A DNA stretch of 64,000 bases, taken from NCBI GenBank assembly GCA_963842525.1, contig CAWJGT010000009.1, forward strand, positions 256,001 through 320,000, read 5' to 3'. Under the pieces are notes generated by a model. It was given only the letters and a program-made list of their open reading frames with translations, made no database searches and was not told where the DNA came from. Position numbers and translations under genes: made by a program. Below are positions 37,180 to 53,943 of this stretch, one piece after another (the first letter of the stretch is position 1; every line of letters starts with the position of its first letter). This DNA comes from an uncultured Holophagales bacterium. Lineage in GTDB: Bacteria > Acidobacteriota > Thermoanaerobaculia > Multivoradales > UBA5704.

Positions 37180-37252
37180 TGGGAGGAGCCTGCGTGTGTC
37201 AACCGTCTTGGGAACGCGTCGGAGGCTGTGACCAGATCGACGCCGGGACACC

Positions 37253-37516: not shown

Positions 37517-37784
37517 ATCGTCTTCTCTCCGCCTGGGTCATGCCTCTCGCCGAGACAATCAGGGCTTCGCCGCTCCTCTTGAAAACGAAGAAGACTGCGA
37601 GATGGCGGCCAGCATCGGTCTGCCCGAGGGCGAGGTAAACGTCCTCCGGCCGATGCCCATTCTCGAGGAATCGGAACCGGGGGCGATTCTCGAGGACTTC
37701 CTGGACTTCGGCGTCACTGACATGGTGCTTCCGCCAGAGCTTCTCGACGATCTCCTCCAGCCAGATGATACTCTCGATCTTCAT
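37503..37784 (-). CDS. BrnT-family toxin
   Basis: KLWRKHHVS..EV.EV, ALGQTDAGRHL.VFF, IVSARGMT..ERRRYE. Confidence 0.85.
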   Translation of the reverse strand: MKIESIIWLEEIVEKLWRKHHVSDAEVQEVLENRPRFRFLENGHRPEDVYLALGQTDAGRHLAVFFVFKRSGEALIVSARGMTQAERRRYEQK

Positions 37785-37880
37785 CCTCGCTCCTCCACTT
37801 CCCCCTCCGGCGACTGTACCGCCACGTGCCGGGCGAGTTGGGCGATGATCTCTTCCATCCGGACGATTCTGCCATGGCGC

Positions 37881-37910
37881 TTGACAGCCTCTCGCGCCTC
37901 CTGCTGTAAT
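37881..37910 (+). promoter_or_regulatory. Sigma70 promoter of the aro-his-trp operon
   Basis: TTGACA-18 nt-TGTAAT with extended -10 TG. Confidence 0.7.
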
Positions 37911-37931
37911 CGCGGCCCTGTAGGAATACGG

Positions 37932-38018
37932 ATGATGCGCACGACCGGCCCCCACTTCACTGCTTCCGCCGCGCCCGCCTGGGCTTGGTGGCCGGTCCAT
38001 CACCATTCCGTGATCTAG
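37932..38018 (+). CDS. Leader peptide MMRTTGPHFTASAAPAWAWWPVHHHSVI
   Basis: RBS agga; 3 Trp and 3 consecutive His codons near the stop; lies between promoter and terminator. Confidence 0.85.
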   Translation: MMRTTGPHFTASAAPAWAWWPVHHHSVI

Positions 38019-38075
38019 CCGGGGCGCCGTCCCGGCACGCGAACCCGGGACGAGACAGCCACCGCGCCACATGTC

Positions 38076-38109
38076 ACCTCCTTCCGGGTCCGGAAGGAGG
38101 TTTCGTTTT
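38076..38109 (+). terminator. Attenuator terminator / RBS-sequestering hairpin
   Basis: acctccttccg-ggtc-cggaaggaggt + ttcgtttt; 3' arm carries the AAGGAGG of the TTG start at 38108. Confidence 0.85.
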
Positions 38110-39601
38110 GGAGAGAGAGCGGGCGACCCTGATCGCGACCCTTACGGCGCCACCGGCGCCGAAGGATCCTGGTTTTGCCGCGGCGCTCGACGGGGTCGAT
38201 TGGCTGGAGGTGCGGGCCGATCTGACGGGCGACCTGGACCCGAAGCCGTTGCGCCGGCAGCTTGATGGCAGGAAGCTCCTCTACACCCTGCGCAGCCGGG
38301 CCGAGGGGGGCTCTTTCGACGGCTCGCCCGAGGGCCGCAAGCGCCGGCTCCTCGACGCCGCTGCGCGGTTCGATCTCGTCGACCTCGAAGCGCAGCGCGA
38401 TCTCTCTCCCGACCTGCTCAAGGCGATCCCGCCCGGGAAGCGGGTCATTTCCTGGCACGGACCGGCTACCGGCTTGCCGGAGCTCCAGGCCTGCTTCGAG
38501 CGGATGGCTGCCGTCGATGCCGTCCTCTACAAGCTGGTCCCCGCGGCGGCGCAAGCCGGCGAGGAGCTGCCGCCGCTCCTCCTCCTCGCCAGCCTGGAGC
38601 GTCGCGATGTGATCGCTTTCTCGACCGGCAATACCGGCGCCTGGACGCGCCTGGTCGCGCCCCATCTCGGCGCACCGATGGTCTACGGTGCGCTGGGCGA
38701 CGTCCCCGGCGCGCCGGGGCAGATCCCGATCCGCCGCCTGCGCGAGGACTTCGGCCTGCCTGCGCTACGGCCGGTCCGGGCGCTGTATGGCATCGCCGGC
38801 AATCCGGTCGCGCACTCGCTCTCGCCGCGCCTGCACAACGCCGCCTATGCCGCCCTGGGCATCCCGGCGCTCTACGTCCCTTTCCATGTGGAATCGTTTG
38901 GCGACTTCTGGCTTGAGGTCGTCGAGTCGCCCGTCCTGGAGCAGGTCGGGATCCCTTTGCGCGGCCTGTCGATCACGACACCCTACAAGGAGGCGGCCCT
39001 GGCTGTGGCCGGTGCTGCGAGCCCGCGGTCCGAGCTGGTCAATTCGGCCAACACGCTTGTTTGGAACGAAGGAGTCTGGGAGGCGGAGACGACCGATCCG
39101 GACGGCGTGGTGCTGCCGCTCGTGCGGCGCGGGATCGACATCGCATCCCGAACGGCGGCAGTCGTGGGGACCGGCGGTGCCGGGCGCGCCGCGGCCGAGG
39201 GGCTCCTGGAGGCCGGCGCCGGCGTCACCCTGGTCAACCGCAGCGCCGAGCGCGGCCAGCGCGCCGCCGAGGTTCTGAAGGTCCCCTTCCTCACGCTCGA
39301 CGAATTCCGGCCCGCCGAGTACGACCTGCTGGTCAATGCCACCTCGCTCGGCCGCGCCGACGGCGAGCCGCTGCCGTTCCCGGTCGAGGACCTGCGCCCG
39401 GGCACCGTCGTGGTCGATCTCGTGTACGGCGACAAGCCGACGGCCCTGGTGCGTGCCGTGGAGGAGTGCGGGTTCCTCGCCGTGGACGGGCGGGAAGTGC
39501 TGGTGGGCCAGGCCCAGGGCCAGTTCCGGATGATGACCGGGCAGGAGCTGCCCGTGGACCTCGCCCTCCGCACGGTGGGGTTGGAGGAGTCCGCGCGATG
39601 A
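38108..39601 (+). CDS. aroDE: Bifunctional type I dehydroquinate dehydratase / shikimate dehydrogenase
   Basis: WLEVRAD, LRSRAEGG, ISWH; then HSLSPRLHN, T.PYKE, G.GGAGRA, VNATSLG. Confidence 0.88.
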   Translation: MERERATLIATLTAPPAPKDPGFAAALDGVDWLEVRADLTGDLDPKPLRRQLDGRKLLYTLRSRAEGGSFDGSPEGRKRRLLDAAARFDLVDLEAQRDLSPDLLKAIPPGKRVISWHGPATGLPELQACFERMAAVDAVLYKLVPAAAQAGEELPPLLLLASLERRDVIAFSTGNTGAWTRLVAPHLGAPMVYGALGDVPGAPGQIPIRRLREDFGLPALRPVRALYGIAGNPVAHSLSPRLHNAAYAALGIPALYVPFHVESFGDFWLEVVESPVLEQVGIPLRGLSITTPYKEAALAVAGAASPRSELVNSANTLVWNEGVWEAETTDPDGVVLPLVRRGIDIASRTAAVVGTGGAGRAAAEGLLEAGAGVTLVNRSAERGQRAAEVLKVPFLTLDEFRPAEYDLLVNATSLGRADGEPLPFPVEDLRPGTVVVDLVYGDKPTALVRAVEECGFLAVDGREVLVGQAQGQFRMMTGQELPVDLALRTVGLEESAR

Positions 39602-40551
39602 GAGTCTCCGCCGCCCTGCCGACCGGTGTCGCGGCCTTGCTCTTCGAGAGCGCCCGGCGCCGCCGCGCCGCCGAGGGCCGGTTGGTGTCGCTCCTCGAGG
39701 GCGCCGGTTATTCGGAGGTGATTCTGCCGATCCTCGACTACCTGGAGCCCTACGAGGCGCTGCTCACGCCGGCGAGCCGCGGCGAGCTCTACCGCTTCAT
39801 CGACCGCGACGGCGAGCAGCTCGCCCTGCGCTCCGACTTCACCCCCATGCTGGCCCGGCTGCTCGCCCCTCAGCTCCAGGGGCTGCCGCTGCCGCTCCGC
39901 CTCTATTACCGGGGCGACGTGATTCGCTACGAGGAGGAGCGGGCCGGCAGGCAGCGGGAGTTCTACCAGATCGGGGCCGAGCTGCTCGGGATGCCGGGAG
40001 AGCCGGCGGAGCGCGAGGTCCTCCGTCTGTTCCTGGAAATGCTGGCGCCGGAGGGGGAGGGAGAGACCCAGGTGGTGCTCGGGTTCGCCGGCGCTCTCGA
40101 CCGCCTGCTGACGGAGGCGGGGGATCCGCTGGCTCTGGCCGCGGCGGTGGCACACCGGGAACGCGGTGTCGCACGGCGGGCCTGCCCCAAGCTGCTGCCC
40201 ATCGTCGAGTCCGGGCTGCCCGAGGAGCCCGAGGACCTTGGGCCCGAGGCGGCCTGCCGCCTGCGCGGGCTGCTCGCCTTGCGGGATGAGCTGGCCGCGC
40301 GCTTCCCTTCTGTGCGGCTGATCGTCGATCTGGCCGAGTTCGCCCGCCACAGCCTCGACCCCCGGCTGTCCGTCGAGGCGGGCGACCGCTCGTACTACGA
40401 CGGCATCGTCTTCCGCGCCTACTCCGGCATCTCGGCGCTGCCGGTGGGCGGAGGAGGCCGTTACGACTCCCTGTTCCACCGGTTGGGAGCCGAGGTCCCG
40501 GCGGTGGGGTTCTCTTTGAGTCTCGAACGCCTGCTGGAGACGCGGCCGTGA
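39598..40551 (+). CDS. hisZ: ATP phosphoribosyltransferase regulatory subunit
   Basis: LRSDFTPMLAR, REFYQIGAEL, YYDGIVF, GGGRYD. Confidence 0.92.
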   Translation: MRVSAALPTGVAALLFESARRRRAAEGRLVSLLEGAGYSEVILPILDYLEPYEALLTPASRGELYRFIDRDGEQLALRSDFTPMLARLLAPQLQGLPLPLRLYYRGDVIRYEEERAGRQREFYQIGAELLGMPGEPAEREVLRLFLEMLAPEGEGETQVVLGFAGALDRLLTEAGDPLALAAAVAHRERGVARRACPKLLPIVESGLPEEPEDLGPEAACRLRGLLALRDELAARFPSVRLIVDLAEFARHSLDPRLSVEAGDRSYYDGIVFRAYSGISALPVGGGGRYDSLFHRLGAEVPAVGFSLSLERLLETRP

Positions 40552-41165
40552 TCCGCCTTGCGCTGCCCAAGGGGCGGAACCTGGAAGTCGCCCGCGCCGC
40601 CTTCCGGGCCGCCGGGCTCCTCGAAGGTCTCGACCTCGGCGGCCGGAGCCTTCTCGTCCAGTTGGACGGGATCGAGGTGCTCTCTCTCAAGGACTGGGAC
40701 CTCCCGCTGTACGTCGAGCACGGCGTGGCCGATTTCGGCATCGTGGGCAGCGACGTGCTGGCCGAGGTGGACGGCGACCTGCTGGTGCCGCTCCGGCTCC
40801 GGGACGGGCGCTCGCGGATGTCGCTGATCGGCCGTGATCCGGAGCTGCCCGCGCCGGGCAGCCAGGTGCGGCTGGCCACCAAGTACCCGCTCACCGCCCG
40901 CCGCCTGGTGGCCGACCGCCCCTGGGGGGCCGAGATCTTCAAGCTCTCGGGATCGATTGAGCTGGCGCCGGCGCTCCATCTCGCCGAGGTGGCGCTCGAC
41001 ATCGTCCAGACCGGACGGACGCTCGCCGAGAACCGGCTGGTCGAGATCGAAACCGTGGCCGAGGTGGCGGCCTGCCTGGTGGTGAACCGTGCCTCGTACC
41101 AGCGCCATCGCGCGCTCTTGAACGACTGGATCAACCGCCTGGAGGCGGCGGGGGTGGCGCTGTGA
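40548..41165 (+). CDS. hisG: ATP phosphoribosyltransferase, short form
   Basis: ALPKGR, ATKYP, GSIELAP, DIVQTGRTL.EN. Confidence 0.95.
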   Translation: MIRLALPKGRNLEVARAAFRAAGLLEGLDLGGRSLLVQLDGIEVLSLKDWDLPLYVEHGVADFGIVGSDVLAEVDGDLLVPLRLRDGRSRMSLIGRDPELPAPGSQVRLATKYPLTARRLVADRPWGAEIFKLSGSIELAPALHLAEVALDIVQTGRTLAENRLVEIETVAEVAACLVVNRASYQRHRALLNDWINRLEAAGVAL

Positions 41166-41167
41166 GA

Positions 41168-41322
41168 CCTCACCCCCGGCCCCTCTCCCATCTCCCACCC
41201 GCCCCTTCCCCGGGAGAGGGGAGAAATTCAAGAGGAAACAGCTCGAAGCATTTTTTAGTCTTCGTTCCCCCTCTCCCGGCGTGGGGTGGTAGGGAGATGG
41301 GAGAGGGGGCCAGGGGGTGAGG
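41168..41322. repeat. REP-like family A inverted doublet filling the hisG-hisD gap
   Basis: cctcacccccggcccctctccc...gggagagggg and inverted copy ending gggggtgagg. Confidence 0.85.
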
Positions 41323-42634
41323 TCTTTGTCGCCGCTCGCGATTCATACGACCTCGTCCCGCGCCGGCCGCCGCGCGGTCGAGCGCCTGACCCGTCGTGGC
41401 GATGCGGTCCTCGACGCCAAGACCCTGCGCCGCGCAGGGCGGATCGTCCAGGCCGTGCGCCGGACGGGGGACCGCGCCCTGCTCGGCTTTGCGCGCGAGC
41501 TCGACGGGGCCGAGACCGAGTCGGTGGCCGGGCTTGCGCTCGCTCCGCTGCCCGGAGACGCCCAGGGCTCCGGTCTGCCTGCGGGTTTCGCGGATGCGTT
41601 GGAGCAGTCCATCGAGGCGGTGAGGACCTTCTATCAGCCGCAGGCGCAACGGGCTTGCGAAGATTTCCGGCAGATGCAGGATGGGGCGGACCTCCGGGAG
41701 GTGGTCACACCGCTCCGCCGCATCGGCATCTATGTGCCGGGCGGGCGTGCAGCCTATCCTTCGACCGTGGTCATGACGGTCGTCCCGGCCCAGGAGGCCG
41801 GCGTGAAGGAAATCGCGGTCGCGACGCCGCCGGGCTCGTATCGGGGGAGCCCGGCGCTGCGCTATGCCCTGGCGACGCTCGGGGTGACCGAGGTGTGGGG
41901 GATGGGCGGCGCGCATGCGGTCGCCGCCTTTGCTTATGGCACCGAGACGATCCGCCGGGTCGACAAGATCGTCGGGCCGGGCAACGCCTGGGTCACCGCG
42001 GCCAAGAAGCTGGTGGTGGGCGATGTGGCGATCGACGGCATCGCCGGCCCCAGCGAGGTGCTGATCGTGGCCGATGCGACTGCCGATCCGGCCGACCTGG
42101 CCGCCGACCTGCTGGCCCAGGCGGAGCACGACCCGCTGGCCGCCGCCGTGTTGATCACTCCCGACCGCGGGCTCGCGGAGCGGGTCTCCGAGGAGGTCGA
42201 GCGCCAGCTCGCGGATTTGCCCACCGCGGAGACCGCGCGAGCCTCTCTGGAAAAGTTCGGCGCGGCCCTGGTGGTGGCCGGGATGGAGGAGGCCTTGGAG
42301 CTGGCCGAGCTGATCGCCCCGGAGCACCTGCAGCTCGTCGGTCCCGCGGCCGAGGCGCTCGCGGACCGGATCACCGCGGCCGGCGCGGTCTTCCTCGGCT
42401 CCGCCACGCCCGAGGTCTTCGGCGACTACATCGCCGGGCCGAGCCACGTCCTGCCGACCTGCGGCAGCGCCCGGTTCGCCTCGTCCCTGGGGGTCGAGGA
42501 CTTCCTGCGCCGCAGCCACCGCATCCGGTTCACCCCCGAGGCCGCTGCGCGCCGGGCGGAACCGCGGCGCCTGCCTGGCCGACGCAGAGGGCCTGCCCGC
42601 CCATGCTGCCTCGGCGCGGAGGAGGGCGTCATGA
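41317..42634 (+). CDS. hisD: Histidinol dehydrogenase (indel near 42560)
   Basis: YVPGG.A.YPS, VGPGN, AGPSE, QAEHD, APEHL; C-terminus AEGLPAHAAS in a shifted frame. Confidence 0.9.
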
Positions 42635-43752
42635 TCCATAAGGTCGATCCCGCCGCTCTTCGTCCGGCCCGAATTGCGCCGCCTGTCGGACATACACCTG
42701 GACCTGACGCCGTGCCGGCACAAGCTGGACCAGAACGAGGTGCCCTGGGACCTGCCGCGACGCCTCAAGGAGGAGGTGGCCGACCCGGCTCCTGGACGCC
42801 GACTGGGCCCGCTATCCGGATTTCCACGCCGACGCCCTCCGCCAGGACCTCGGGCGGCTGCACGGCCACCCGTGGGAGGGGGTCCTGGTCGGCAACGGCT
42901 CGAACGAGCTGCTCGGCGTGGCTCTCACGGCCCTGGTGCCGCCCGGCGAGCGAGGTGCTCGGCGCCGAGCCGAGCTTCGGCCTCTACCGCCCGTTCGTCC
43001 TCAAGGCCGGCGGCGTCCCCCGCTTCCTGCCGCCGCGCCCGGACCTGCGCCTGCCGGCCGACGAGATCGAGGCCGAGGTCGAGCGCAACCCCCGCCGGCC
43101 GGTCCTCCTCTGCTACGCCGAACAACCCCACGGGCGATGCCCTGCCGCCGGACCGCGATCGAGTAGCTCCTGGAGCGCCTGGAGGCGCCGCTCCTCCTCG
43201 ACAACGCCTATGGCGAGTTCTGCCGCTGGGACTACCGGCCGCTCCTTGCCCGCTACCCGCACCTGGTCCTCTTCCGCACCTTCTCCAAGGCCTGGTCGCT
43301 CGCCGGGATGCGGCTCGGCTATCTGCTGGCCGATCCGCGCCTGGTCGCGGAGCTGATCAAGGTCAAGCTGCCCTACAACCTGGGCCACGCAGCGGTGATC
43401 GCGGGCCGGGCTGTCCTCGGCGCCGAGGACGAGGCCCGCCGCGGGTGCGGGTGATCGTCGCCCGCCGCGCGCAGTGGGCGCGCGATGCTTGGCCGAGGAG
43501 GGTCTGGAGGTCTTTCCCGTCGGAGGCCAATTTCCTGCTGATCCGCTGCGGCTCGCCGGAGCGCGCACGGGAGATCTCGGCGGCCTCGCGGCGCGCGGCA
43601 TCCGGGTGCGCAATGTCGGCGGGAGCGGCTCTCCCGGGCTGGCCGGTTGTCTGCGCGTGTCGGTCGGCACGGGCGCGGCGCTACGGGATACGCACCTTGC
43701 TCTGGCGGAGATCCGGGAGGGGGTGGCGGTGGAGGAGTCGAGGTTCGCTTCC
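42631..43752 (+). CDS. hisC: Histidinol-phosphate aminotransferase (several indels; 3' end unresolved)
   Basis: KLDQNE, GNGSNE, PNNPTG, RTFSKAWSLAGMRLGY, LRVSVG spread across frames. Confidence 0.8.
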
Positions 43753-44435
43753 ATGCCTCCTCCGCGGCGGCGGAGCCCTCACCCCCCGGCCCCCTCTCCC
43801 ATCCGCACTCCCATCCCGCCCGGGAGAGGGGGAGAGCAGACAGGGAAAAATCGAGCGGACGACAGGCGAGACGCGGATCCGGCTGGCTTTGTCTCTCGAC
43901 GGCGGGCCGCGGCGGATCGAGGTGCCGAACGGGTTCTTCGGCCACATGCTGACAGGCTCTGGCTGCGCATGGCGGGTTCGGGATCGAGTCTGGAGGCGGT
44001 GGGGGATACGCAAGTGGATCTCCACCATACGGTCGAGGACGTGGGGATCGCCTTCGGCGAGGCTCTCGCCGGCGGCGCTGGGGGAGCGGCGCGGGATCGT
44101 CCGCTTCGCCCATGCCTACGCGCCGCTCGACGAGGCGCTGGCGCGGGCCGTGGTCGACCTCTCGGGGCGCGGCTCGTTCGCGTACTCGGCGCCTCCCGAG
44201 GTGGCGGCCGGCTGGGTGACGGCGGAGTTCCCGCTCACCCTGGTGGCCGACTTTTTCCAGGCCGTGGCCGACCGCGGACGGCTGACGCTCCACCTGGATA
44301 TCCTCGTCTGCCCGCAACGGCCACCATGCCGCCGAGGCTGCTTCAAGGCAGCGGCCCTGGCCCTCCGCCAGGCGGTGGCTCTGCGCGGTGCAGTCGACCG
44401 ACGTGCCGAGCACCAAGGGGACGCTGTCCGCATGA
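43753..44435 (+). CDS. hisB: Imidazoleglycerol-phosphate dehydratase (indels; start unresolved)
   Basis: RTTGET, FFGHML, D.HHTVED.GI, PLDEAL, DLSGR, PSTKG.L. Confidence 0.85.
43777..43832 (+). repeat. REP-like family A unit at the hisC-hisB junction
   Basis: cctcaccccccggcccctctccc...gggagagggggg. Confidence 0.85.
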
Positions 44436-45062
44436 GCCGCCGCGCCGTCATTCGACGCCGGAGTCGGCAACCTGGGCAACCTCGTGCGCGCCCTGGAGCG
44501 GGTCGGCGGCCGGCGCGGAGATCACCGCTCGACCCGGCGCGGGTGGCGGAGGCGACGCTGCCTGCTGCTGCCCGGCGTCGGGGCCTTCGCGCCGCCCCGC
44601 GAGGCCCTGCGCGGTGCGATGGAGGAGGCTCTTCGCGTGGCTCTGGACCGTGGCGCCTGGCTGCTCGGCATCTGCGTCGGCTTCCAGCTCTTCTTCGAGG
44701 CTGGCGAGGAGTTTGGAACCATGGACGGCCTCGGCCTTCTCCCCGGCCGGGTGACCCGCCTGCCGCAGGGCGTGCCGGTCCCCCATATCGGCTGGAACCG
44801 TCTGCACGACCTGGCCGCTCACCCCCTGCTCGCTGGTCTGTCCGAAGGCTGGTACGTCTACTTCGTCCACAGCTATGCCCCCGAAGGGGTGCCGGACGGG
44901 CTCTGCCTGGCCCGTTGTACCCACGGCCGTGTCTTCCCGGCGATCGCCGGTACCGAGCGGGTGATGGGGACGCAGTTCCATCCCGAACGCAGCGGCGAGG
45001 CCGGGCTGCGGCTGCTCGCCAACTTCCTGGAGATGGCCCATGGATCTGCTGCCGGCCCTTGA
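44432..45062 (+). CDS. hisH: IGP synthase glutaminase subunit (5' indels)
   Basis: LPGVGAF, GICVGFQ, PHIGWN, YFVHSY, QFHPE. Confidence 0.9.
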
Positions 45063-45753
45063 CCTGCGCCATGGCCGAGCCGTTCGCCTGCGCCAGGGGG
45101 ACGCGGCGCGCGAGACGGTCTACAGCGACGACCCGCTCGCCCTGCTCGTGGCCTACCAGGAGGCGCGGGTCCGCAGGGTCCACGTGGTCGACCTCGACGC
45201 CGCCTTCGGGGAGCCGCCGCAGCGCAAGCTGATCGCGAAGATGGCCGCCCTCCTGCCCATCCAGCTCGGCGGCGGCCTGCGCGACCGCGAGTCGATCCGC
45301 TGGGCTCTGGAGGAGGCCGGCTGCGACCGCGCCGTGGTGGGGTCGCTCGCGGCCCGAGATCCGGAGCGGTTCCGCGACCTCGCCGAGGAATTTGCGGCCC
45401 GCCTTGTACCGGCGCTCGATGTCCAACAGGGCGAGATCCGGATCGCCGGCTGGACCGAAGGCGCGCGGCGGACGCTTGCGGACGTCTGCGCCCGGCTGCG
45501 CGGCCTCCCCTGCCCGGCGGTCCTGGTGACAGACGTCGAACGGGACGGCATGATGACCGGCCCCAACTTCGAGCTGGCCCGCCAGATCGCCCGCGACACC
45601 GGCTACCCCGGTCTCCTCTCGGGAGGTGTGCACCGGCTGGAGGACCTGCAGGCGGCGCTGGGGATTCCGGAGATCGGCGGCGTGGTCGTGGGCCGGGCGC
45701 TCTACGAGGGGGTCTTCACCGTGGAGGAGGCCCTGGGGGTCGTCGCCCGATGA
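45040..45753 (+). CDS. hisA: ProFAR isomerase
   Basis: [36 protein letters not shown]. Confidence 0.93.
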
Positions 45754-46515
45754 GCACGCTGACGAACCTCGCGCGGCGGGTGATCCCCTGCCTGGACGTC
45801 CGGGACGGCCGGGTGGTCAAGGGCGTTCGCTTTCAGGACCTGACCGACCAGGGAGACCCGGCGGAGAGCGCGCTGCGCTACGCAGAGCAGGGAGCGGACG
45901 AGATCGTCTTCCTCGACATCACGGCCGCACCCGAGGGACGCGACACGGACCTCGACTGGGTCCGCCGTACGGCCGAGCAGGTGTTCATCCCGCTGACGGT
46001 CGGCGGCGGCGTGCGCAGCGAGGAGGACGCCCGCCGGCTCCTCCGCGCCGGGGCCGACAAGGTGGGGATCAACACGGCCGCTGTCGAGAATCCAGAGCTG
46101 ATCCGCCGGCTCGCCCGCCGCTTCGGCAGCCAGTGCGTGGTCCTTTCGGTGGACGCCCGGCGCCGCAATGGAGACGGCTGGGAGGTGGTCGTCCAGGGTG
46201 GCCGCAAGCCCACCGGGCTTGGACGCACTCGCCTGGATCCGCGAAGGGGTCGAGCGCGGCGCCGGCGAGATCCTCCTCACCAGCATCGACCGCGACGGTA
46301 CGCAGGGGGGCTACGACCTCGACCTGCTTGCCGAGGTGGTCCGCGCCGTCGAGGTGCCGGTGATCGCCTCGGGCGGCGCCGGCACGCCGGAGCACCTCGC
46401 CCAGGCCCTCGCCGCCGGAGCCGCCGCGGTTCTCGCCGCGTCGATCTTCCACCAGGGGACGTATACGGTGGGGGAGGTGAAGAAGGAGCTGGCCAAGGCG
46501 GGGTTTGAAGTGAGA
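45750..46515 (+). CDS. hisF: IGP synthase cyclase subunit (indel ~46210; no stop, reads into hisIE)
   Basis: [40 protein letters not shown]. Confidence 0.92.
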
Positions 46516-46681
46516 CCTCACCCCCTGTCCCCCTCTCCCATCTCCCACCCACCCTATCCCCGGGAGAGGGGGGACGTTGCTCAGGCGGCTGTGGCGAGGT
46601 CGGGCATAGCCGCTCCGGATGAGTTCCCCCTCTCCCGGCGGGGGGTGGAAGGGAGATGGGAGAGGGGGCTAGGGGGTGAGG
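46516..46681. repeat. REP-like family A inverted doublet, open in frame between hisF and hisIE
   Basis: cctcaccccc...gggagagggggg / ccccctctccc...gggggtgagg; translates without a stop. Confidence 0.88.
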
Positions 46682-46683
46682 TT

Positions 46684-47325
46684 CTCCGCCTGCGCTACGA
46701 TGACCGCGGCCTCGTCCCGGTCGTGGTCCAGGACGTGGGGAGCGGCGCGGTGCTGATGCTGGCCTATGCCAACCGCGAGGCCGTCAAGCGGACTCTCGCG
46801 ACCGGCCAGGTCTGGTTCTGGAGCCGGTCCCGGCAGTCCCTCTGGCGCAAGGGTGAGACCTCCGGCAACACCCTGACACTGGTCGACTTGGTCGTCGACT
46901 GCGATGGGGACGCCCTGCTGGTGCGGGCGCGTCCGGCCGGACCGGCCTGCCACCGCGGCACCCGGACCTGCTTCGAGCCCAACCCCGCGCGCATCGAGCT
47001 CGGCTGGCTCGCCGAGATCCTGCACGGCAGGGCCGGTGCCGACCCGCGGGAGAGCTACACGGCCCGCCTGCTCGCCCAGGGGATCGAGCGCATCGCTCAG
47101 AAGGTGGGCGAGGAGGGGGTCGAGACTGCGATCGCGGCCGTCGTGGCTGCATCCGAACAGGGGGAGCACAAGGACAAACGCCGGACCGCTCTGGTGGGTG
47201 AGGCGGCTGACCTGCTGTACCACCTGCTCGTGCTCTTGCAGGCGAGCGGCGTCGATCCCGCGGAGGTGGCGCAGGAGCTCCTCCGCCGGCACGGTTTCGA
47301 CCCGTCGCCGCACGAGAACATGTAG
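46684..47325 (+). CDS. hisIE: PR-AMP cyclohydrolase / PR-ATP pyrophosphatase (C-terminal part of an apparent HisF-HisIE fusion)
   Basis: [43 protein letters not shown]. Confidence 0.92.
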
Positions 47326-47337
47326 CGAGGACCACGA

Positions 47338-48793
47338 ATGACCGACCCCGGCCACAACCGCCCGCGACGCGCGGTGCCCCATATCCGCGAGCTGCTCGCC
47401 GACAGCCTGACGCCTCTCGGCGTCTACCGCCGTCTGGCGAAGATCTCTCCCCATCGCTTCCTCCTGGAGAGCGTGAGCGGGCGGCGAGAACGTCTCGCGC
47501 TTCAGCTTCCTCGGCGCCGGGCCGCGGGAGATCTACCGCCTCTATCCGGACCGCCTGGAGATCGAGCGCGGCGGGCGCCGGCGCGACCTTCCCGGCGCGC
47601 CTCTCGACGCCCTGCACGAGGTGGTCCGCGGCGTCGCGGCCGAGCCCGGCCCCATCCCCTTCACCGGCGGGCTCGTCGGCTATTTCGGCTACGACCTCAT
47701 CCGCCTGGTCGAGCGCCTGCCGCACCGTCCCGCCGACCGCTACGGCCTGCCCATCGCGCTCCTCGCCCGCTTCGACACCCTGGTCATCTTCGACCACGCC
47801 CACCAGCGCGTGCTCGCCATCGCCAACGAGATCGAAGGTGAGGTGGGAGTGGTCGCCGCCGAGCGCCAGCTCGCGCGCCTCTCCCGGCTGCTGACCGCCG
47901 AAGGCGGCGGCGGCGCGGTGCCCATGCCGGCGCACGCGCTGCGGCCGGCCGGCACCGAGCCGCCCAGCCTCGACGGCGCGAGCTACCGGCGCGCCGTGGA
48001 GACGGCCAAGGAATACATCGCCGCGGGCGACATCTTCCAGGTCGTCCTCGCCCGCCGCTGGACCGTGCCGCGCCGCGTCGAGCCGCTGGCTCTCTACCGG
48101 GCGCTGCGCATGGTCAATCCGAGCCCCTACATGGCCCTCTTCGAGGCGCCCGAGGTGGCGCTGGTCGGCGCCTCGCCGGAGATGCTGGTCCGCAAGCAGG
48201 GGCGGCGGATCGAGACCCGGCCCATCGCCGGCACCCGGCCGCGCGGCATGGACGCCGCCGGCGACAAGAGCCTCGCCGAGGACCTGCTGGCCGACCCCAA
48301 GGAGCGGGCGGAGCACGTGATGCTGGTCGACCTGGGGAGGAACGACCTCGGCCGTGTCGCCGTGCCCGGCAGCGTCCGCGTGGCGAGCTTCCTGGAGATC
48401 GAGCGCTACAGCCACGTCATGCACATGGTCTCCAGCGTCGAGGCCGAGCTGGAGCACGGCCGCAGCGGGCTCGATGCCCTGCTCGCCTGCTTCCCGGCCG
48501 GCACCGTCTCAGGCGCTCCCAAGATCCGCGCCATGGAGATCATCGACGAGCTGGAGCCGGAGAGCCGCGGCCCCTATGCCGGAGCCATCGGCTATCTCTC
48601 CTATTCGGGCGACCTCGACACCTGCATCACCATCCGTACTCTGGTCGTCGAGGCGGACCGCACCTCCGTGACCGCGGGAGCCGGCATCGTGGCCGACTCG
48701 CAGCCCGCGGCGGAGGAGCGGGAGACGGAAAACAAAGCGGCGGCGCTGCTGGCCGCGGTCGCTCTCGCCGAAGAGCTGGAGGAGTATTCGTGA
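47338..48793 (+). CDS. trpE: Anthranilate synthase component I (indel ~47480)
   Basis: FLLES, GDIFQVV, NPSPY, PIAGT, AEHVMLVDLGRND, SGAPKIRAM. Confidence 0.92.
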
Positions 48794-49387
48794 TCCTGAT
48801 GGTGGACAACTACGATTCCTTCACCTACAACCTGGTGCAGATGCTCTCCGCGGCCGGGGCCGAGGTGGTGGTGCTGCGCAACGACTTCGAGAGCGCCGAC
48901 GCCCTGCTCGCCCGCGAGCCGGAGGGAATCGTCCTCTCGCCCGGCCCGGGCCGGCCCGAGGACGCAGGCGTCTGCCTGGACCTGATCCGGCGCCGCGCTC
49001 CGGTCCCGCTCCTCGGCGTCTGCCTCGGCCACCAGGCCCTGGGTGTCGCCTTCGGGGCCACGGTGGACCGCGCGCCGCGCCAGATGCACGGCAAGACCTC
49101 GATGGTCCGCCACACCGATCTCGGAGTCTTCGCCGGGCTGCCCAACCCCTTCGAGGCCACGCGCTACCACAGCCTGGAGGTCAAGGAGCCGACGCTGCCG
49201 CCGGAGCTGGAGCCGATCGCCTGGAGCGACGACGGCACGCTCATGGGCCTGCGCCACCGCGAGCTCCCGTACTGGGGCGTGCAGTTCCATCCCGAATCGG
49301 TGCTGACCGGCTCCGGGCGCGCACCTCCTGGCCAATTTCCTGGGCCTGTGCAAGACGGTGGCGGACGAGGTGGCGGTCCATGCCTGA
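48790..49387 (+). CDS. trpG: Anthranilate synthase component II (indel ~49320)
   Basis: DNYDSFTYNL, SPGPG, GVCLGHQ, RYHSL, QFHPES. Confidence 0.92.
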
Positions 49388-50392
49388 GGCGAAGGAGGCG
49401 CTCTGGCGCCTGGCCGCGGGGGAGAGCCTCACCCGCGAAGAGACCGAGGAGCTCTTCGGCTCTCTGATGGACGGCCAGGTCAGCGACACGATCAAGGCCG
49501 CGCTCCTGGTCGCCCTGCGCATGAAGGGGGAGGTGGTGGCGGAGATCGCCGGCGCTGCCACCGCCATGCGGCGCCGGGTGATCCCCATCCGCCACTCGGT
49601 CGAGGGGGTGGTGGATACCTGCGGCACCGGCGGCGACGGCCGCGGCACCTTCAACATCTCGACCGCGGCGGCGCTGGTGGCCGCGGCGGCCGGCGTGCGC
49701 GTGGCCAAGCATGGCAACCGGTCCGTCTCCAGCAAGTCGGGGAGCGCCGACGTGCTCGCCGCCCTGGGGGTGAGGATCGAGATGGACCCCGAGACCGCCG
49801 GCCGCGCCCTGGAGACCGTCGGAATCACCTTCCTTTTTGCGCCGCTGCTCCATCCCGCGATGCGCGAGGTCATGCCGGTGCGCCGCGAGCTGGGGATGCG
49901 GACGATCTTCAACGTCCTGGGTCCGTTGACCAACCCGGCCGGCGCCCGCCGGCAGCTCATGGGGGTCTACGCCGAAGCCCTGGTCGAGCCGATCGGCCAC
50001 GTGCTGCGCGACCTCGGTGCCGAGCACGCCCTGGTGGTCCACGGCAGCGACGGCCTGGACGAGATCACCACGACGGGTCCGACCACGGTGAGCGAAGTCA
50101 AAGATGGAGAAACGCGCGCCTACACCCTGGAGCCGGAGCGCCTGGGGATTCCGCGCGCACGCCTGCAGGACCTCGCCGGCGGCGGACCCGAGGAGAACGC
50201 GGCCCTGATGCACCGCGTCCTCGGCGGTGAGCCCGGCCCCCTGGCGGATGTGACTGCCTTGAACGCCGGCGCCGCGATCTACGTCTCCGGCCTGGCGCCG
50301 ACCCTGGAGGATGGATACGGGCGGGCTCGCGAGGTGCTGGCCTCGGGGGCGGGGCGCGGAAGCTCGCGGAGCTGAAAGGGTTCCTGGGATGA
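49380..50392 (+). CDS. trpD: Anthranilate phosphoribosyltransferase (indel near the 3' end)
   Basis: DTCGTGGDG, NISTA, KHGNR, GPLTNP, DGLDE. Confidence 0.93.
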
Positions 50393-50435
50393 CGCTCCCC
50401 GCCACCCCCCGGAGCCCGGGTCGCGGGGAGGTCCG

Positions 50436-51243
50436 ATGATCCCCGACATCCTCCTCCGCATCGCCGAGCGCCGCCGCCAGCGGGTGGCGGCGGAGATCGC
50501 CGCTCGCGGTGGGGCTGGAAGCCTCGTCGAGGCTGACGACAGCGCGATCCTCACCGAGCGCGACAACGCCTTCCTCGGCCGCCTTGCGGCAGCGAACGAA
50601 GGGCACCCCCGCCATCATCGCCGAGGTCAAGATGGGCTCCCCGCGGCTGGGCTACCTCCACGGTCGGGTCGATCCCATCGCCCAGGCGCGCATCTATGCC
50701 GAGCATGGTGCCGCCTGCCTGTCCGTGGTTGTGGAGCCGGATTTCTTCCATGGCGGCTACGACCTCCTCGCCGCCTGCCGCGCGGCTTCGGGCCTGCCGG
50801 CCATCGCCAAGGACTTCCTGGTCGACCCGGTCCAGCTCGTCTGGGCCAAGGAGGCCGGCGCCGACGCCGTGCTGCTGATCGCCGCTCTCCTACGAAGCCG
50901 GCGAGATGGCGCGCTACGCCCGCCTGGCCCGCGGCCTCGGCCTGGTCCCGCTGGTCGAGACCCACGACGCGGACGATATCGGCAAGCTCGCTCGGCGAGC
51001 CCTGGGAGCTGGTCGGCATCAACAACCGCGACCTGCGCACCTTCGACGTCGACCTCCAGAATTCGATCTCCCTGCTGCCCGGCCTGCCCGCCGAGGCGGT
51101 CAAGGTGGCCGAGAGCGGAATCCGCGACGCCCTCGACGTGTTGCTCCTCCGCGACAGCGGCTTCGACGCCTTCCTGATCGGCGAGTCGCTACTGCTCGCC
51201 ACGGACCCGGGCGCGAAGCTGCGGGAGCTGACCGGGCGCATGA
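50436..51243 (+). CDS. trpC: Indole-3-glycerol-phosphate synthase (indels)
   Basis: IIAEVK..SP, KDF, GADAVLLI, GINNRDL, AESGI, LIGESL across frames. Confidence 0.88.
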
Positions 51244-51868
51244 CGCAGGATCAAGATCTGCGGCGTCGCCGACGCCGAGAACGCCTGCCTGGCGGTCGAC
51301 CTGGGGGCCGATTTCCTCGGGTTGAACTTCTATCCGCGGAGCCCGCGGTATGTCGACCCGGGCCGGGCGCGGGAGATCGCCGACGCGGTGCGCGGGCGGG
51401 TGACCCTGGTCGGGGTCTTCGTCAACGCCGCGCCGGCCCAAATCGAGGAAATCACTGGCCGCGTCGGGCTCGACCTGCTGCAATTCAGCGGCGACGAGGA
51501 CCCCGAGGCCGTGGCGCCGTTCGCCGGCCGCGCCGTCAAGTGCTTCCGCACCGGCGGCGACCCCGGGGGCGAGGCGCTCGCGCCGTACCGCGACGCCTGG
51601 GGGCTGCTGTTCGACGCTCCCCACGGTTCCCTGTATGGTGGCACCGGTGCCGCCTGGAGCTACGCGGCGGTCGCGCGCACGGTCGAGGCCCTGCCCGGCC
51701 GGCGGGTCTTCCTGGCCGGCGGCCTCGGGCCGGACAACGTGCGGCAGGCGATCGAAGCCTGCCGGCCCTTCGCCGTGGACGTCTGCTCGCGGGTGGAGTC
51801 GGCCCCCGGAATCAAGGATCCCGAGCTGCTGCGGCGGCTTTTTGAGGAAGTTCTTCTAGGAGATCGGA

Positions 51869-51894
<26 letters not shown>
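51240..51894 (+). CDS. trpF: Phosphoribosylanthranilate isomerase (5' indel)
   Basis: IKICG, SPRYV, VGVFVN, GGTG, LAGGL, VES.PGIKD. Confidence 0.9.
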
Positions 51895-53109
<1,215 letters not shown>

Positions 53110-53113
<4 letters not shown>

Positions 53114-53943
53114 CCGCGATCGACGACGTGTTCGCCCGCTGCGCCGCCGAAGGGCGCGCCGCCTTCATCCCCTTCCTCATGGCCGGCGACCCCAGCCTGG
53201 ACGCCACCGCAGCCTTCCTGGAAGCGCTCGCCGCCGGCGGCGCCGACGTGATCGAGCTGGGCGTGCCGTTCAGCGACCCGATCGCCGACGGCCCGACGAA
53301 CCAGCGGGCCGCGGTGCGCGCGCTCCAGTCCGGCACCAAGATCTCGGGCATCCTGGAGCTGGTGGCCCGGCACCGCGACCGGATCGGCGTGCCGATCGTT
53401 CTCTTCACCTACTTCAACCCGATCTTCTCGCGCGGCATCGAGCGCTTCGCCGAGCAGGCCGCGGCCTCGGGGGTCGACGGCGTGCTCTGCGTCGACCTGC
53501 CGCCCGAGGAGGGGCAGGAGGAGCTGGTGCCGGCGCTGCGCGAGCAGGGGGTGGACACCATCTTCCTCCTCGCCCCCACGAGCACCCGCGAACGCATCGG
53601 CCGGGTCGGGGCGATGTCCTCGGGCTTCGTCTATTACGTCTCGCGCACCGGGGTGACCGGCGAGCGCGCCGCCCTGCCGTCCGACCTGGTGCGCGACCTG
53701 AAGCGCCTGCGCCGGCGGCTCGACCTGCCGCTCGCCGTGGGCTTCGGGATCTCGTCGCCGGCCCACGTGGCCGCGGTGGCGGAGGTGGCCGACGGCGTGG
53801 TGGTGGGGAGCGCGCTGGTGCGGCTGGTCGAGGAGGGCCTGGAGCATGACGATCCCCGGGCCCTGCCGCGCCTCCTCGAAGAGCGGGTCCGCGACCTGTC
53901 GGAGCCGCTGCGGCGCCAGGCGGCGGAACGGCGGCGGGCATGA
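53110..53943 (+). CDS. trpA: Tryptophan synthase alpha chain
   Basis: [34 protein letters not shown]. Confidence 0.96.

What the first reader, a model, noticed from the sequence alone, without database searches (positions are those of the whole stretch)
37881..38110. Candidate dual Trp + His attenuator: one leader peptide (WAWW...HHH) in front of a fused aro-his-trp operon
Seen: a sigma70 promoter, then a 28-aa ORF MMRTTGPHFTASAAPAWAWWPVHHHSVI (Trp codons 37980-37991, His 37998-38006). Mutually exclusive stems follow. A (gccgggg 38018-24) pairs with B (tcccggc 38030-36). B (cgtcccgg 38028-35) pairs perfectly with C (ccgggacg 38045-52). C (acccggga 38043-50) pairs with ttccgggt (38082-89) inside the terminator 38076-38101, whose 3' arm is also the SD of aroDE. 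Known: hisL and trpL attenuators each sense one amino acid; two-input leaders such as thrL (Thr/Ile) cover one pathway family. Inference: a ribosome at the stop masks A, so B:C and the terminator form. Stalling on Trp or His codons frees A, so A:B and the C antiterminator form. That would be an OR gate across two separate pathways that share PRPP. I know of no described His+Trp leader.
Basis: partly seen in the sequence, partly recalled or inferred. Interest (0 to 1): 0.9.

Follow-up and report, generated by a model that had tools for sequence, protein, structure and literature searches.

The report
Dual tryptophan-histidine attenuator leader
A tiny leader gene rich in both tryptophan and histidine codons, followed by competing RNA hairpins and a terminator, most likely lets a shortage of either amino acid switch on one long operon that makes both; I found no earlier description of this pairing.

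Summary
At 37932-38018 (+) a 28-codon ORF carries 3 Trp and 3 His codons near its end. Four overlapping helices follow: A:B, B:C, C:D and the terminator D:E. The 3' arm of the terminator holds the ribosome-binding site of an aroD-aroE fusion gene, which heads a his-trp operon of about 16 kb.

A covariance model built from relatives finds one such leader per genome in 105 of 151 genomes of the same order. Named records place the clade in Thermoanaerobaculia, Acidobacteriota.

In the last 16 codons of 80 leaders, His makes up 17.8% and Trp 11.6%. The downstream gene has 1.7% and 0.9%.

The sensor codons follow operon content:
- 59 his+trp operons keep both kinds of codon.
- 11 operons that lost the his block keep Trp but have no His run.
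- One genome whose trp genes moved away lost all Trp codons.
- Separate his, trp and chorismate mutase/DAHP synthase operons in other orders carry His-only, Trp-only and Tyr/Phe leaders.

This is a ribosome-mediated attenuator with two inputs. It is a new variant of a known kind. The exact switching logic (five segments, termination triggered when the ribosome reaches the stop codon) is inferred. Equilibrium folding supports it only weakly, and no RNA data exist.

The parts
37881..37910 (+). Promoter: -35 box 37881-37886, 18-nt spacer, TG-extended -10 box 37902-37910
   Evidence: Sequence. The same boxes are visible upstream of the leader in most of the 16 relatives printed. The strict consensus scan did not call it.
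37932..38018 (+). Leader peptide ORF, 28 codons plus a TAG stop
   Evidence: An equivalent ATG-started ORF is found in 78 of 82 related leaders.
37980..37991 (+). Three Trp codons (one Ala codon between the first and second)
   Evidence: At least one Trp codon occurs in the last 16 codons in 58 of 59 his+trp leaders and in 11 of 11 trp-only leaders.
37998..38006 (+). Three consecutive His codons. The first base of the last one lies 14 nt before segment A.
   Evidence: At least two His codons occur in 57 of 59 his+trp leaders. The last His codon is the 4th codon before the stop in 44 of 69 leaders, and the 3rd to 5th in 60 of 69.
38018..38025 (+). Segment A (5' arm of the first hairpin), starting on the last base of the stop codon
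   Evidence: The A:B hairpin is present in the minimum-energy fold of 76 of 78 leaders and starts 0-3 nt after the stop codon in the rows printed.
38028..38036 (+). Segment B, which pairs either with A or with C
38043..38054 (+). Segment C, which pairs either with B (anti-antiterminator) or with D (antiterminator). It is an imperfect copy of the terminator's 3' arm.
   Evidence: The two B:C helix parts are 77% and 89% paired. C:D is 85% paired over 12 positions including an invariant C.C.
38076..38101 (+). Intrinsic terminator hairpin D:E. The 3' arm (38091-38101) contains the ribosome-binding site of aroDE (38092-38100).
   Evidence: D:E is 98.4% paired, and 7 of 10 pairs show changes on both sides.
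38101..38110 (+). T-rich tract of the terminator, containing the TTG start codon of aroDE (38108-38110)
   Evidence: The TTG-in-T-run arrangement is seen in relatives.
38108..39601 (+). aroD-aroE fusion gene (type I dehydroquinase plus shikimate dehydrogenase)
   Evidence: Pfam. Homologues in 41 of 41 genomes searched.
39602..47325 (+). his gene block: hisZ, hisG, hisD, an unassigned stretch of about 1.3 kb, hisB, hisH, hisA, hisF, hisIE. Gene borders are approximate.
   Evidence: Pfam. The same gene order is found in relatives.
47338..53943 (+). trp gene block: trpE, trpG, trpD, trpC, trpF, trpB, trpA
   Evidence: Pfam. The same gene order is found in relatives.

Best explanation
This is a ribosome-mediated attenuator acting on transcription termination and on access to the ribosome-binding site. 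Its leader peptide carries two sets of sensor codons, Trp and His, and it controls one aroDE-his-trp operon.

Shown:
- A conserved promoter, short ORF, Trp and His codons, four mutually exclusive helices and a terminator that hides the ribosome-binding site.
- Sensor codons that follow operon content across genomes.

Inferred mechanism:
1. Five segments form a relay: A:B, B:C, C:D, D:E.
2. When Trp-tRNA and His-tRNA are plentiful, the ribosome runs to the stop codon, which touches segment A, and melts A:B.
3. Freed B then captures C as C emerges.
4. D stays free, and D:E forms. Transcription stops in the T-run, and any transcript that escapes has its ribosome-binding site buried.
5. When the ribosome stalls on a Trp codon (29-38 nt before A) or a His codon (14-20 nt before A), its front edge does not reach A.
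6. A:B persists, C stays free and pairs with D, E cannot fold back, the polymerase reads through, and the ribosome-binding site is open.

Either shortage is enough, so the leader acts as an OR gate. Unlike the classical trp and his leaders, the sensor codons lie upstream of the first hairpin rather than inside it. An untranslated leader would therefore be predicted to read through.
For: Anatomy in the window.

No match to any Rfam family, including the His and Trp leaders and the T-box, even at E up to 10.

Conservation of the RNA (model R1):
- 1 full copy in the window's own genome.
- 105 of 151 genomes of the order.
- 39 of 151 genomes of a class sample. Outside the order only families f14 (7 of 35) and f19 (2 of 16) had hits.
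- 5 of 151 genomes of a phylum sample. The single hit outside the class has no Trp/His ORF and no his or trp genes.

Leader ORF: present in 78 of 82 leaders, with the stop at the same offset in 71 of 80.

Codon enrichment: the last 16 codons hold His 17.8% and Trp 11.6%. The first downstream gene holds 1.7% and 0.9%. The N-terminal parts of the same peptides hold 1.7% and 0.0%.

Codons follow operon content:
- his+trp operons, n=59: at least one Trp in 58, at least two His in 57, a run of consecutive His in 36.
- trp-only operons, n=11: at least one Trp in 11, at least two His in 3, a His run in 0.
- His counts differ between the two classes (Mann-Whitney p=7e-6, not corrected for kinship). 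Trp counts do not (p=0.86).

The trp-only genomes lack his genes. hisD (PF00815) was found in 1 of 10, and hisB (PF00475) in 0 of 10. The controls matched in 14 of 14 genomes.

The one trp-only genome that keeps his genes elsewhere (G032) has a separate short ORF with six His and no Trp, plus a terminator, in front of them (model E=0.014).

Reciprocal case: G002, of the same genus, has an aroDE-his leader with three His and no Trp. Its trpE lies mid-contig elsewhere with no leader match at E up to 1 with filters off.

Other orders of the class:
- His-only leaders (six His) before hisZ-to-hisIE operons.
- A Trp-only short ORF before an aroDE-like gene plus trpE.
- Tyr/Phe-rich leaders before chorismate mutase plus DAHP synthase.

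Helices:
- B:C plus D:E are 91.8% paired. 10 pairs show changes on both sides, and 0 of 500 shuffles reach this.
- C:D is 85% paired, and 5 of 12 pairs show changes on both sides.
- The A:B hairpin appears in 76 of 78 leaders.
- The two states are close in energy: mean -33.5 against -37.1 kcal/mol.

Geometry: the last His codon is the 3rd to 5th codon before the stop in 60 of 69 leaders.

Folding of the window's transcript cut before the 3' arm gives these probabilities that D is captured by upstream RNA:
- No ribosome: 0.73.
- Ribosome on the Trp codons: 0.70-0.73.
- Ribosome on the last His codon: 0.71.
- Ribosome on the stop codon: 0.01.

Codon choice: leaders use the rarer His codon CAT at 46%, against 25% in the downstream gene.
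Against: - No experiment and no RNA data exist. 3' ends near 38105 are unverified.
- Equilibrium folding of full-length leaders predicts the terminator in every ribosome state. The median probability is 0.99 in all six states over 72 leaders, so it cannot discriminate.
- With the transcript cut before the 3' arm, the effect over 63 leaders is small. Mean capture of D is 0.61 with no ribosome, 0.57 on Trp, 0.60-0.61 on His, and 0.43, 0.50 and 0.59 for a ribosome at stop-3, stop and stop+3. The window's own result swings from 0.01 to 0.52-0.73 when the footprint moves by 3 nt. A ribosome on the first His codon gives only 0.32.
- Covariation of A:B could not be assessed on the alignment because of misaligned columns (47-67% paired).
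- Kinship weakens the statistics. On a tree of 60 AroDE rows, the trp-only state needs 7 changes, of which only 4 are forced by supported branches. Of the 4 independent pairs, 2-3 go the expected way, 0 go the other way and 1-2 show no difference. The sign test gives p=0.25-1.
- There are exceptions. G032 keeps three scattered His codons in its aroDE-trp leader, G092 keeps two, and one his+trp leader has a single His.
- 46 of 151 genomes of the order gave no match. Some relatives have the same promoter directly before aroDE with no leader.
- The loss of Trp codons rests on one genome.
- In this window hisB, hisF, trpE and trpC are interrupted by frame changes. Either the assembly has indel errors or the operon is decaying here.
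- The predicted read-through without translation differs from classical attenuators and is untested.
Confidence: 0.8

Rival explanations
1. The hairpin acts only on translation. D:E hides the ribosome-binding site and start codon of aroDE, and the leader ORF opens it, with no real transcription termination. This is not exclusive with the best explanation.
For: The ribosome-binding site lies in the 3' arm and the start codon in the T-run. The T-run is interrupted by C and G. No 3'-end data exist.
Against: The hairpin plus T-rich tract meets the terminator pattern. The T-run is kept in nearly all leaders. Control of translation of the first gene alone would not obviously co-regulate 16 kb of downstream his and trp genes, yet the sensor codons follow exactly those genes.
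Confidence: 0.1
2. Only one amino acid is really sensed, for example His through its codon run. The other codon set is a relic or serves RNA structure.
For: Trp codons number only 1-3 and are often not adjacent. The Trp-loss case is a single genome (G002).
Against: At least one Trp is kept in 58 of 59 his+trp leaders and 11 of 11 trp-only leaders. The N-terminal parts of the same peptides contain 0 Trp in 1148 residues. All Trp codons are replaced where the trp genes left the operon. His runs vanish where the his genes are lost. From general knowledge, E. coli trpL works with two Trp codons.
Confidence: 0.06
3. The conserved Trp...His tail is an arrest peptide that senses a free ligand inside the ribosome tunnel, as TnaC senses free Trp. 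On this view it does not report charged-tRNA supply.
For: Conserved residues sit close to the stop codon. The last three residues before the stop are also fairly conserved among close relatives.
Against: The number, spacing and order of the Trp and His residues vary freely. The residues change with operon content. Leaders of the same architecture carry His-only or Tyr/Phe codons before other pathways. This fits codon sensing, not a fixed peptide-tunnel contact.
Confidence: 0.03
4. The RNA is a riboswitch, T-box or protein-bound attenuator, and the short ORF is incidental.
For: Segments B, C and D are strongly conserved in sequence.
Against: No Rfam family matches at E up to 10. The ORF is kept in 78 of 82 leaders with a fixed stop position and variable N-terminal sequence. 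The sequence conservation is explained by each segment having two alternative partners.
Confidence: 0.02

Closest known systems
E. coli trp operon attenuator (trpL; Rfam Trp_leader). Properties recalled from general knowledge.
   Same: A short leader ORF with Trp sensor codons, alternative hairpins, an intrinsic terminator before the first biosynthetic gene, and ribosome position deciding the fold.
   Different: There is no sequence or structure match. Here there are five segments instead of four. The sensor codons lie upstream of the first hairpin rather than inside it. The ribosome reaching the stop is predicted to trigger termination by melting A:B. The terminator also hides the ribosome-binding site. 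His codons are present as well.
Salmonella / E. coli his operon attenuator (hisL; Rfam His_leader). Properties recalled from general knowledge.
   Same: A run of His codons near the end of a short leader peptide, and a chain of alternative helices (a multi-segment relay) ending in a terminator.
   Different: There is no match. hisL has six segments and seven His codons and senses His only. Without translation it terminates, whereas this leader is predicted to read through.
Multi-amino-acid leaders thrL (Thr, Ile) and ilvL (Ile, Leu, Val).
   Same: One leader peptide carries sensor codons for more than one amino acid.
   Different: Those amino acids belong to one connected pathway family. Here the two inputs belong to separate pathways whose genes were fused into one operon, and the codon sets come and go with the gene blocks.
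Leader families reused with different sensor codons, such as the leu/phe leader motif of Lactococcus. Recalled, not checked here.
   Same: One RNA architecture appears with different sensor codons before different pathways. Here these are Trp+His, His-only, Trp-only and Tyr/Phe.
   Different: The clade (Thermoanaerobaculia) and the sequence differ. Here two codon sets are combined in one peptide.
His leader peptides predicted upstream of hisZ and a hisS paralogue in bacilli (PMC2965389; passages read)
   Same: A His-codon leader peptide in front of hisZ, outside Proteobacteria.
   Different: Those sense His only and are found in Firmicutes. [quoted passage not shown]

Membership tests
Ribosome-mediated (leader-peptide) transcription attenuators | A short translatable ORF in the 5' leader between the promoter and the first structural gene | tested here: met
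   ORF 37932-38018 lies downstream of the conserved promoter. An ATG-started ORF is present in 78 of 82 related leaders. Translation itself is not shown.
Ribosome-mediated (leader-peptide) transcription attenuators | Sensor codons for the amino acid(s) made by the operon, enriched in the leader ORF | tested here: met
   His 17.8% and Trp 11.6% in the last 16 codons, against 1.7% and 0.9% in the downstream gene. The codon sets follow operon content.
Ribosome-mediated (leader-peptide) transcription attenuators | An intrinsic terminator upstream of the first structural gene | tested here: met
   Hairpin 38076-38101 plus a T-run. It is 98.4% paired with compensatory changes in 78 leaders. Termination in vivo was not tested.
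Ribosome-mediated (leader-peptide) transcription attenuators | Mutually exclusive antiterminator and terminator structures | tested here: met
   C pairs with B or with D, and D pairs with C or with E. The two states lie within about 4 kcal/mol on average.
Ribosome-mediated (leader-peptide) transcription attenuators | The position of a stalled versus a finishing ribosome selects the fold | tested here: inconclusive
   The geometry fits. Segment A starts at the stop codon, and the last His codon is the 3rd to 5th codon before the stop in 60 of 69 leaders. The window's truncated fold switches as predicted. Across 63 leaders the equilibrium effect is small and depends on the assumed footprint. Full-length folds do not discriminate.
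Ribosome-mediated (leader-peptide) transcription attenuators | Read-through rises on starvation for the cognate amino acid | not testable with these tools
   No RNA run holds the stretch. No cultured carrier was examined.
Rfam His_leader, Trp_leader and T-box | A match to the family covariance model | tested here: not met
   Scanning 37000-39000 at E up to 10 returned only five chance-level hits to unrelated families.
Multi-input leader peptides (thrL / ilvL type) | Sensor codons for two or more amino acids in one leader peptide | tested here: met
   Three Trp and three His codons in the window. Both kinds are present in at least 56 of 59 his+trp leaders (58 carry at least one Trp and 57 at least two His).
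Multi-input leader peptides (thrL / ilvL type) | The inputs belong to one connected pathway family | tested here: not met
   The inputs are His and Trp. Their gene blocks are separable and occur as separate operons with single-input leaders in other orders of the class.

The most novel reading that the evidence does not exclude
Thermoanaerobaculia carry their own family of relay attenuators with five segments. In this family the ribosome's arrival at the stop codon, not its stalling, triggers termination by melting the first hairpin, so an untranslated leader reads through. The sensor codons act as exchangeable modules: Trp, His, Trp+His, or Tyr/Phe. They are gained and lost together with gene blocks as operons fuse, split or lose the his pathway. 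The Trp+His version would be the first leader peptide that joins two unrelated biosynthetic pathways as an OR gate.
Probability: 0.45. Interest if true: 0.75.

Novelty: new variant of a known kind. Interest (0 to 1): 0.68.

Why it matters
Leader-peptide attenuation is a textbook mechanism. Its known cases sense one amino acid or a set from one pathway family, and they come mostly from Proteobacteria, Actinobacteria and some Firmicutes.

Here one leader combines sensors for two separate pathways. The comparative record works like a natural codon-swap experiment: the sensor codons appear and disappear with the genes they would regulate.

The finding gives a functional reading to a conserved non-coding element in Acidobacteriota. 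A 2010 survey stated that almost no predicted attenuator in that phylum had an assigned function (PMC2965389, passages read).

It also offers a compact, portable two-input RNA switch whose relay design can be tested in E. coli reporters. As a by-product, it flags lineages that appear to have lost histidine synthesis through deletion inside the operon.

Tried and rejected
- Rfam scan: nothing relevant. T-box and known leader families are rejected as memberships.
- Strict promoter scan: no site called. The promoter reading rests on the sequence and on conservation.
- Full-length equilibrium folding with ribosome masks: the terminator wins in all states, so this test is uninformative.
- Truncated-transcript folding: the first version crashed on an index error after three leaders, and the corrected version analysed 63 of 82. 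The other 19 were skipped because they lacked an ATG-started ORF, a T-run, or six terminator pairs. The effect was weak.
- Six-segment his-type design: I looked for a pairing between the Trp/His codon region and segment A, which would make the design his-like. Only a 4-base palindromic overlap was seen by eye in the window. No systematic test was run.
- Window-specific pairing: the window's minimum-energy fold pairs the Trp codon region with the linker after C. I did not find this to be clearly conserved and dropped it without a formal test.
- Covariation of A:B on the model alignment failed because of misalignment. An alignment-free fold replaced it.
- Independent-pairs test on a FastTree tree of 60 of 82 rows. 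Rows were dropped if their operon end was unseen, if they lacked aroDE, or if the match was under 380 residues. The test was underpowered.
- Pattern scan of named genomes: 119 or more stretches matched, and 80 were listed. Of the 8 listed records whose titles do not name Acidobacteriota, 2 match the model strongly, 2 weakly, and 4 not at all. The 4 are labelled Microbacterium, Streptomyces, Planctomycetaceae and delta proteobacterium. I take those as chance pattern matches.
- The single phylum-level hit outside the class (G318) has no Trp/His ORF. tblastn with the operon proteins returned nothing, and the script then stopped on the empty table.
- Expression: no RNA holder listed.
Paper supplements were not consulted, because they are closed. 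Large attenuator surveys keep their lists in supplements, so a listed His+Trp leader could have escaped me.
- Not used, because they were not needed: the search for homologous proteins, the search of protein representatives, structure prediction, fold search, complex prediction and the protein-atlas search.
Full report
**What is in the window.**

- A 28-codon ORF runs from the ATG at 37932 to the TAG at 38016-38018.
- It has Trp codons at 37980, 37986 and 37989 and three consecutive His codons at 37998-38006.
- The stated stems A (38018-24), B (38028-36) and C (38043-52) are there. So is the pairing of C with 38082-89 inside a hairpin at 38076-38101 that is followed by a T-rich run.
- That hairpin is the only terminator-like site in 37400-38400 (1 found, 0.5 expected from shuffles).
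- Its 3' arm holds the ribosome-binding site (38092-38100) of the next gene, whose TTG start (38108) lies in the T-run.
- The promoter is a perfect -35 box at 37881-86, an 18-nt spacer and a TG-extended -10 box. The strict scan did not call it. The same boxes are visible upstream of the leader in most of the 16 relatives printed.
- No Rfam family matches, even at E up to 10.

**Surroundings.** Downstream, Pfam identifies an aroD-aroE fusion gene, then hisZ, hisG, hisD, hisB, hisH, hisA, hisF, hisIE, then trpE, trpG, trpD, trpC, trpF, trpB, trpA, ending at 53943. Upstream lie hisS and an aromatic amino acid lyase on the + strand. A BrnT/BrnA toxin-antitoxin pair lies on the - strand. No + strand gene therefore ends at the terminator, which must belong to a transcript that starts at the promoter just described.

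**Relatives.**
- AroDE homologues were found in 41 of 41 genomes of the same genus, family and order.
- Of the 30 loci returned, 17 including the window's own showed the promoter, a short ORF with Trp and His near its end, the same stems and the terminator. One locus was cut by a contig end, and 12 lacked the leader upstream of aroDE.
- One of those 12 has the leader after aroDE, before hisZ. Three others have the same promoter directly before aroDE with no leader.
- A covariance model built from the 17 leaders finds one full copy in the window's own genome.
- It matches 105 of 151 genomes of the order, and 39 of 151 genomes of a class sample. Outside the order only families f14 (7 of 35) and f19 (2 of 16) had hits.
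- It matches 5 of 151 genomes of a phylum sample. The single hit outside the class is not a leader of this kind.
- A pattern scan of named records returned MAGs that are almost all labelled Thermoanaerobaculia, Acidobacteriota, Holophagales or 'Candidatus Multivorans' (72 of 80 listed). Of the 8 other records, 2 match the model strongly, 2 weakly and 4 not at all.

**The leader peptide.** I fetched about 18 kb around 80 leaders and located the leaders with the model. After dropping matches shorter than 90 nt and overlapping antisense matches, 82 leaders remained.
- 78 of the 82 have an ATG-started ORF ending in the first 36 nt of the match.
- The stop sits at the same offset in 71 of the 80 with a readable tail.
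- In the last 16 codons His is 17.8% and Trp 11.6%. The first downstream gene has 1.7% and 0.9%. The N-terminal parts of the same peptides have 1.7% and 0.0%.
- The last Trp precedes the last His in 67 of 68 leaders.
- The last His codon is the 4th codon before the stop in 44 of 69 leaders, and the 3rd to 5th in 60 of 69.
- Leaders use the rarer CAT codon for 46% of His, against 25% in the downstream gene (not corrected for kinship).

**Sensor codons follow operon content.** I read gene order downstream of each leader by tblastn with the window's own proteins and tabulated it.

| Operon class | n | At least 1 Trp | At least 2 His | Run of consecutive His |
|---|---|---|---|---|
| his+trp | 59 | 58 | 57 | 36 |
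| trp only (his block absent) | 11 | 11 | 3 | 0 |

- The mean His count is 3.0 in his+trp leaders and 1.2 in trp-only leaders (Mann-Whitney p=7e-6, uncorrected). Trp counts do not differ (p=0.86).
- The trp-only genomes appear to lack histidine synthesis altogether. A HisG query matched 1 of 10. hisD (PF00815) matched 1 of 10. hisB (PF00475) matched 0 of 10. The controls matched in 14 of 14 genomes. Completeness of these genomes is 89-100%.
- The one genome with his genes elsewhere (G032) has a separate short ORF with six His and no Trp, plus a terminator, in front of them (weak model match). Its aroDE-trp leader still holds three scattered His codons.
- The reciprocal case is G002, of the window's genus. 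Its aroDE-his leader has three His and no Trp, because the Trp positions of its nearest relatives are replaced. Its trpE lies mid-contig elsewhere, with no his gene and no leader before it (no model match at E up to 1 with filters off).
- In several genomes the leader stands before hisZ rather than aroDE and still carries both codon sets.
- G008 has two leaders, one before aroDE-hisS-lyase and one before hisZ. Both carry Trp and His.

**Other orders of the class**:
- Family f19 has a Trp+His leader before aroDE-his-trp.
- Family f14 has His-only leaders (six His) before hisZ-to-hisIE operons.
- Family f14 also has a short ORF with two Trp before an aroDE-like gene plus trpE. I read this by eye, and the model does not match it.
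- Family f14 further has Tyr/Phe-rich leaders before chorismate mutase plus DAHP synthase.

**Correction for kinship.** On a FastTree tree of 60 AroDE rows the trp-only state needs 7 changes, of which at least 4 are forced by supported branches. Among the 4 independent pairs the leader state goes the expected way in 2-3, the other way in 0, and does not differ in 1-2. The sign test cannot reach significance with so few pairs (p=0.25-1). The direction is consistent, but the formal test is underpowered.

**Structure.** I tested the helices on a model-based alignment of 78 leaders.
- The state with B:C plus D:E is 91.8% paired, with 10 pairs changed on both sides. No shuffle of 500 reaches any of four measures, and slid controls are far lower.
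- D:E alone is 98.4% paired, with 7 of 10 pairs compensatory.
- C:D (12 positions) is 85% paired. 5 pairs are changed on both sides, and one C.C mismatch is kept in 78 of 78 leaders.
- Segment C is an imperfect copy of the terminator's 3' arm. This explains its strong sequence conservation.
- A:B was misaligned in that alignment. An alignment-free fold finds the hairpin in 76 of 78 leaders, starting 0-3 nt after the stop codon in the rows printed.
- Helix energies rise along the chain. For the window they are -15.8, -15.1, -16.3 and -20.4 kcal/mol. The means are -14.0, -17.1, -19.5 and -20.0 kcal/mol.
- The two states differ by about 3.6 kcal/mol on average, as expected of a switch.

**How it most likely works (inference).**
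1. The ribosome's front edge reaches roughly 12-13 nt beyond the first base of the A-site codon (general knowledge from toeprinting).
2. With the last His codon in the A site, that edge stops at the stop codon, just short of A. On the Trp codons it is further back still.
3. A:B then stays closed, C is free, C:D forms before E is made, and the polymerase passes the T-run with the ribosome-binding site open.
4. A ribosome that runs on melts A:B from the codon after the last His onward and sits on A at the stop. B then takes C, D stays free, and D:E forms.

For the window, folding the transcript cut before E reproduces this. The probability that D is captured by upstream RNA is:
- 0.73 with no ribosome,
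- 0.70-0.73 on the Trp codons,
- 0.71 on the last His codon,
- 0.01 at the stop codon.

There are caveats. The first His codon gives 0.32. Moving the footprint by 3 nt gives 0.52-0.73. Over 63 leaders the mean difference is small (0.57-0.61 against 0.43-0.59). Full-length equilibrium folds always form the terminator, so the decision must be kinetic and cannot be settled here.

The design differs from trpL (four segments) and hisL (six segments, recalled). Its sensor codons lie upstream of the first hairpin, and an untranslated leader should read through.

**Comparison with what is known.** It works like the classical leader-peptide attenuators and meets their structural criteria, but it matches none of their Rfam models. 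Leaders with several inputs are known (thrL, ilvL; recalled), but their inputs belong to one pathway family.

I searched the full-text library five times for leader peptides combining His and Trp, for Thermoanaerobaculia or Acidobacteria attenuators, and for his-trp operon leaders. I found none. Of the papers listed, I read only passages:
- PMC4833913 makes no specific claim about such a leader.
[quoted passage not shown] It also predicts His leader peptides before hisZ in bacilli.

Supplements were closed.

**Verdict.** The element is real, conserved and almost certainly a leader-peptide attenuator with two inputs. It is a new variant of a known kind. The relay logic is a testable inference. 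Interest is moderate to high. The mechanism class is textbook, but three things are new and directly testable with reporters: the cross-pathway OR gate, the natural codon-swap record, and the inverted role of the finishing ribosome.

One caution for this particular genome: hisB, hisF, trpE and trpC each change frame relative to intact relatives. Identity is equally high on both sides of each break (75-91%). I therefore read these as assembly indels rather than decay, but I could not check this.

Noticed in passing
window 44072; 46216-46220; 47477-47481; about 50890 and about 50990: hisB, hisF, trpE and trpC each continue in another reading frame at these points, relative to intact ORFs of relatives. 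Pfam domains are split between frames, and tblastn pieces change frame. Identity is equally high on both sides of each break, which suggests assembly indels rather than pseudogenes. This is unverified. No aminotransferase (hisC) domain was found in the roughly 1.3 kb between hisD and hisB in the two ORFs tested.
   Followed up: partly
window 37253-37784 (-) and 37781-37960 (-): A BrnT-like ribonuclease toxin (37503-37784) and a CopG/BrnA-like antitoxin (37253-37516) lie between the lyase gene and the leader. A further 59-codon ORF with no Pfam match overlaps the toxin start by 4 bases and runs across the leader's promoter and first codons on the opposite strand. Whether it is a real gene is unknown.
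   Followed up: partly
window 33947-37179 (+): hisS and an aromatic amino acid lyase (histidine ammonia-lyase family) lie just upstream of the operon. In relative G008 the same two genes lie inside the cluster, between aroDE and a second copy of the leader (L068).
   Followed up: partly
G012, G029, G071, G092, G097, G104, G137, G141, G152, G165 (loci L071, L082, L121, L109, L133, L089, L093, L096, L119, L102): Ten genomes of the order (89-100% complete) have an aroDE-trp or trp operon without the his block. They show no hisB, and the nine tested show no hisD, anywhere in the assembly. This points to apparent histidine auxotrophy that arose in several lineages by deletion inside the operon.
   Followed up: partly
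L266:451-1869, also L267, L268, L270 (family f14): Leaders of the same architecture carry short ORFs rich in Tyr and Phe codons. They precede a chorismate mutase gene and a DAHP synthase gene, and so are likely Tyr/Phe attenuators of the common aromatic pathway.
   Followed up: partly
L130 (G031:C1, about 387620-389250): A second copy of the leader in one 'same order' genome is followed by aroDE, hisZ and hisG fragments interrupted by TAG and TAA stops. This looks like a decayed duplicate of the operon head beside the intact one 24 kb away.
   Followed up: no
L273 (G203:C119), first 560 bases: Several tandem copies of a unit of about 55 nt end in a G+C-rich hairpin that partly matches the terminator part of the model. 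There is no his or trp gene nearby. It is a repeat element of unknown nature.
   Followed up: no
80 related leaders: His codons in the leader tails are CAT in 46% of cases, against 25% in the first downstream gene. This may reflect selection for slower decoding, or simply the lower G+C content of the leader.
   Followed up: partly
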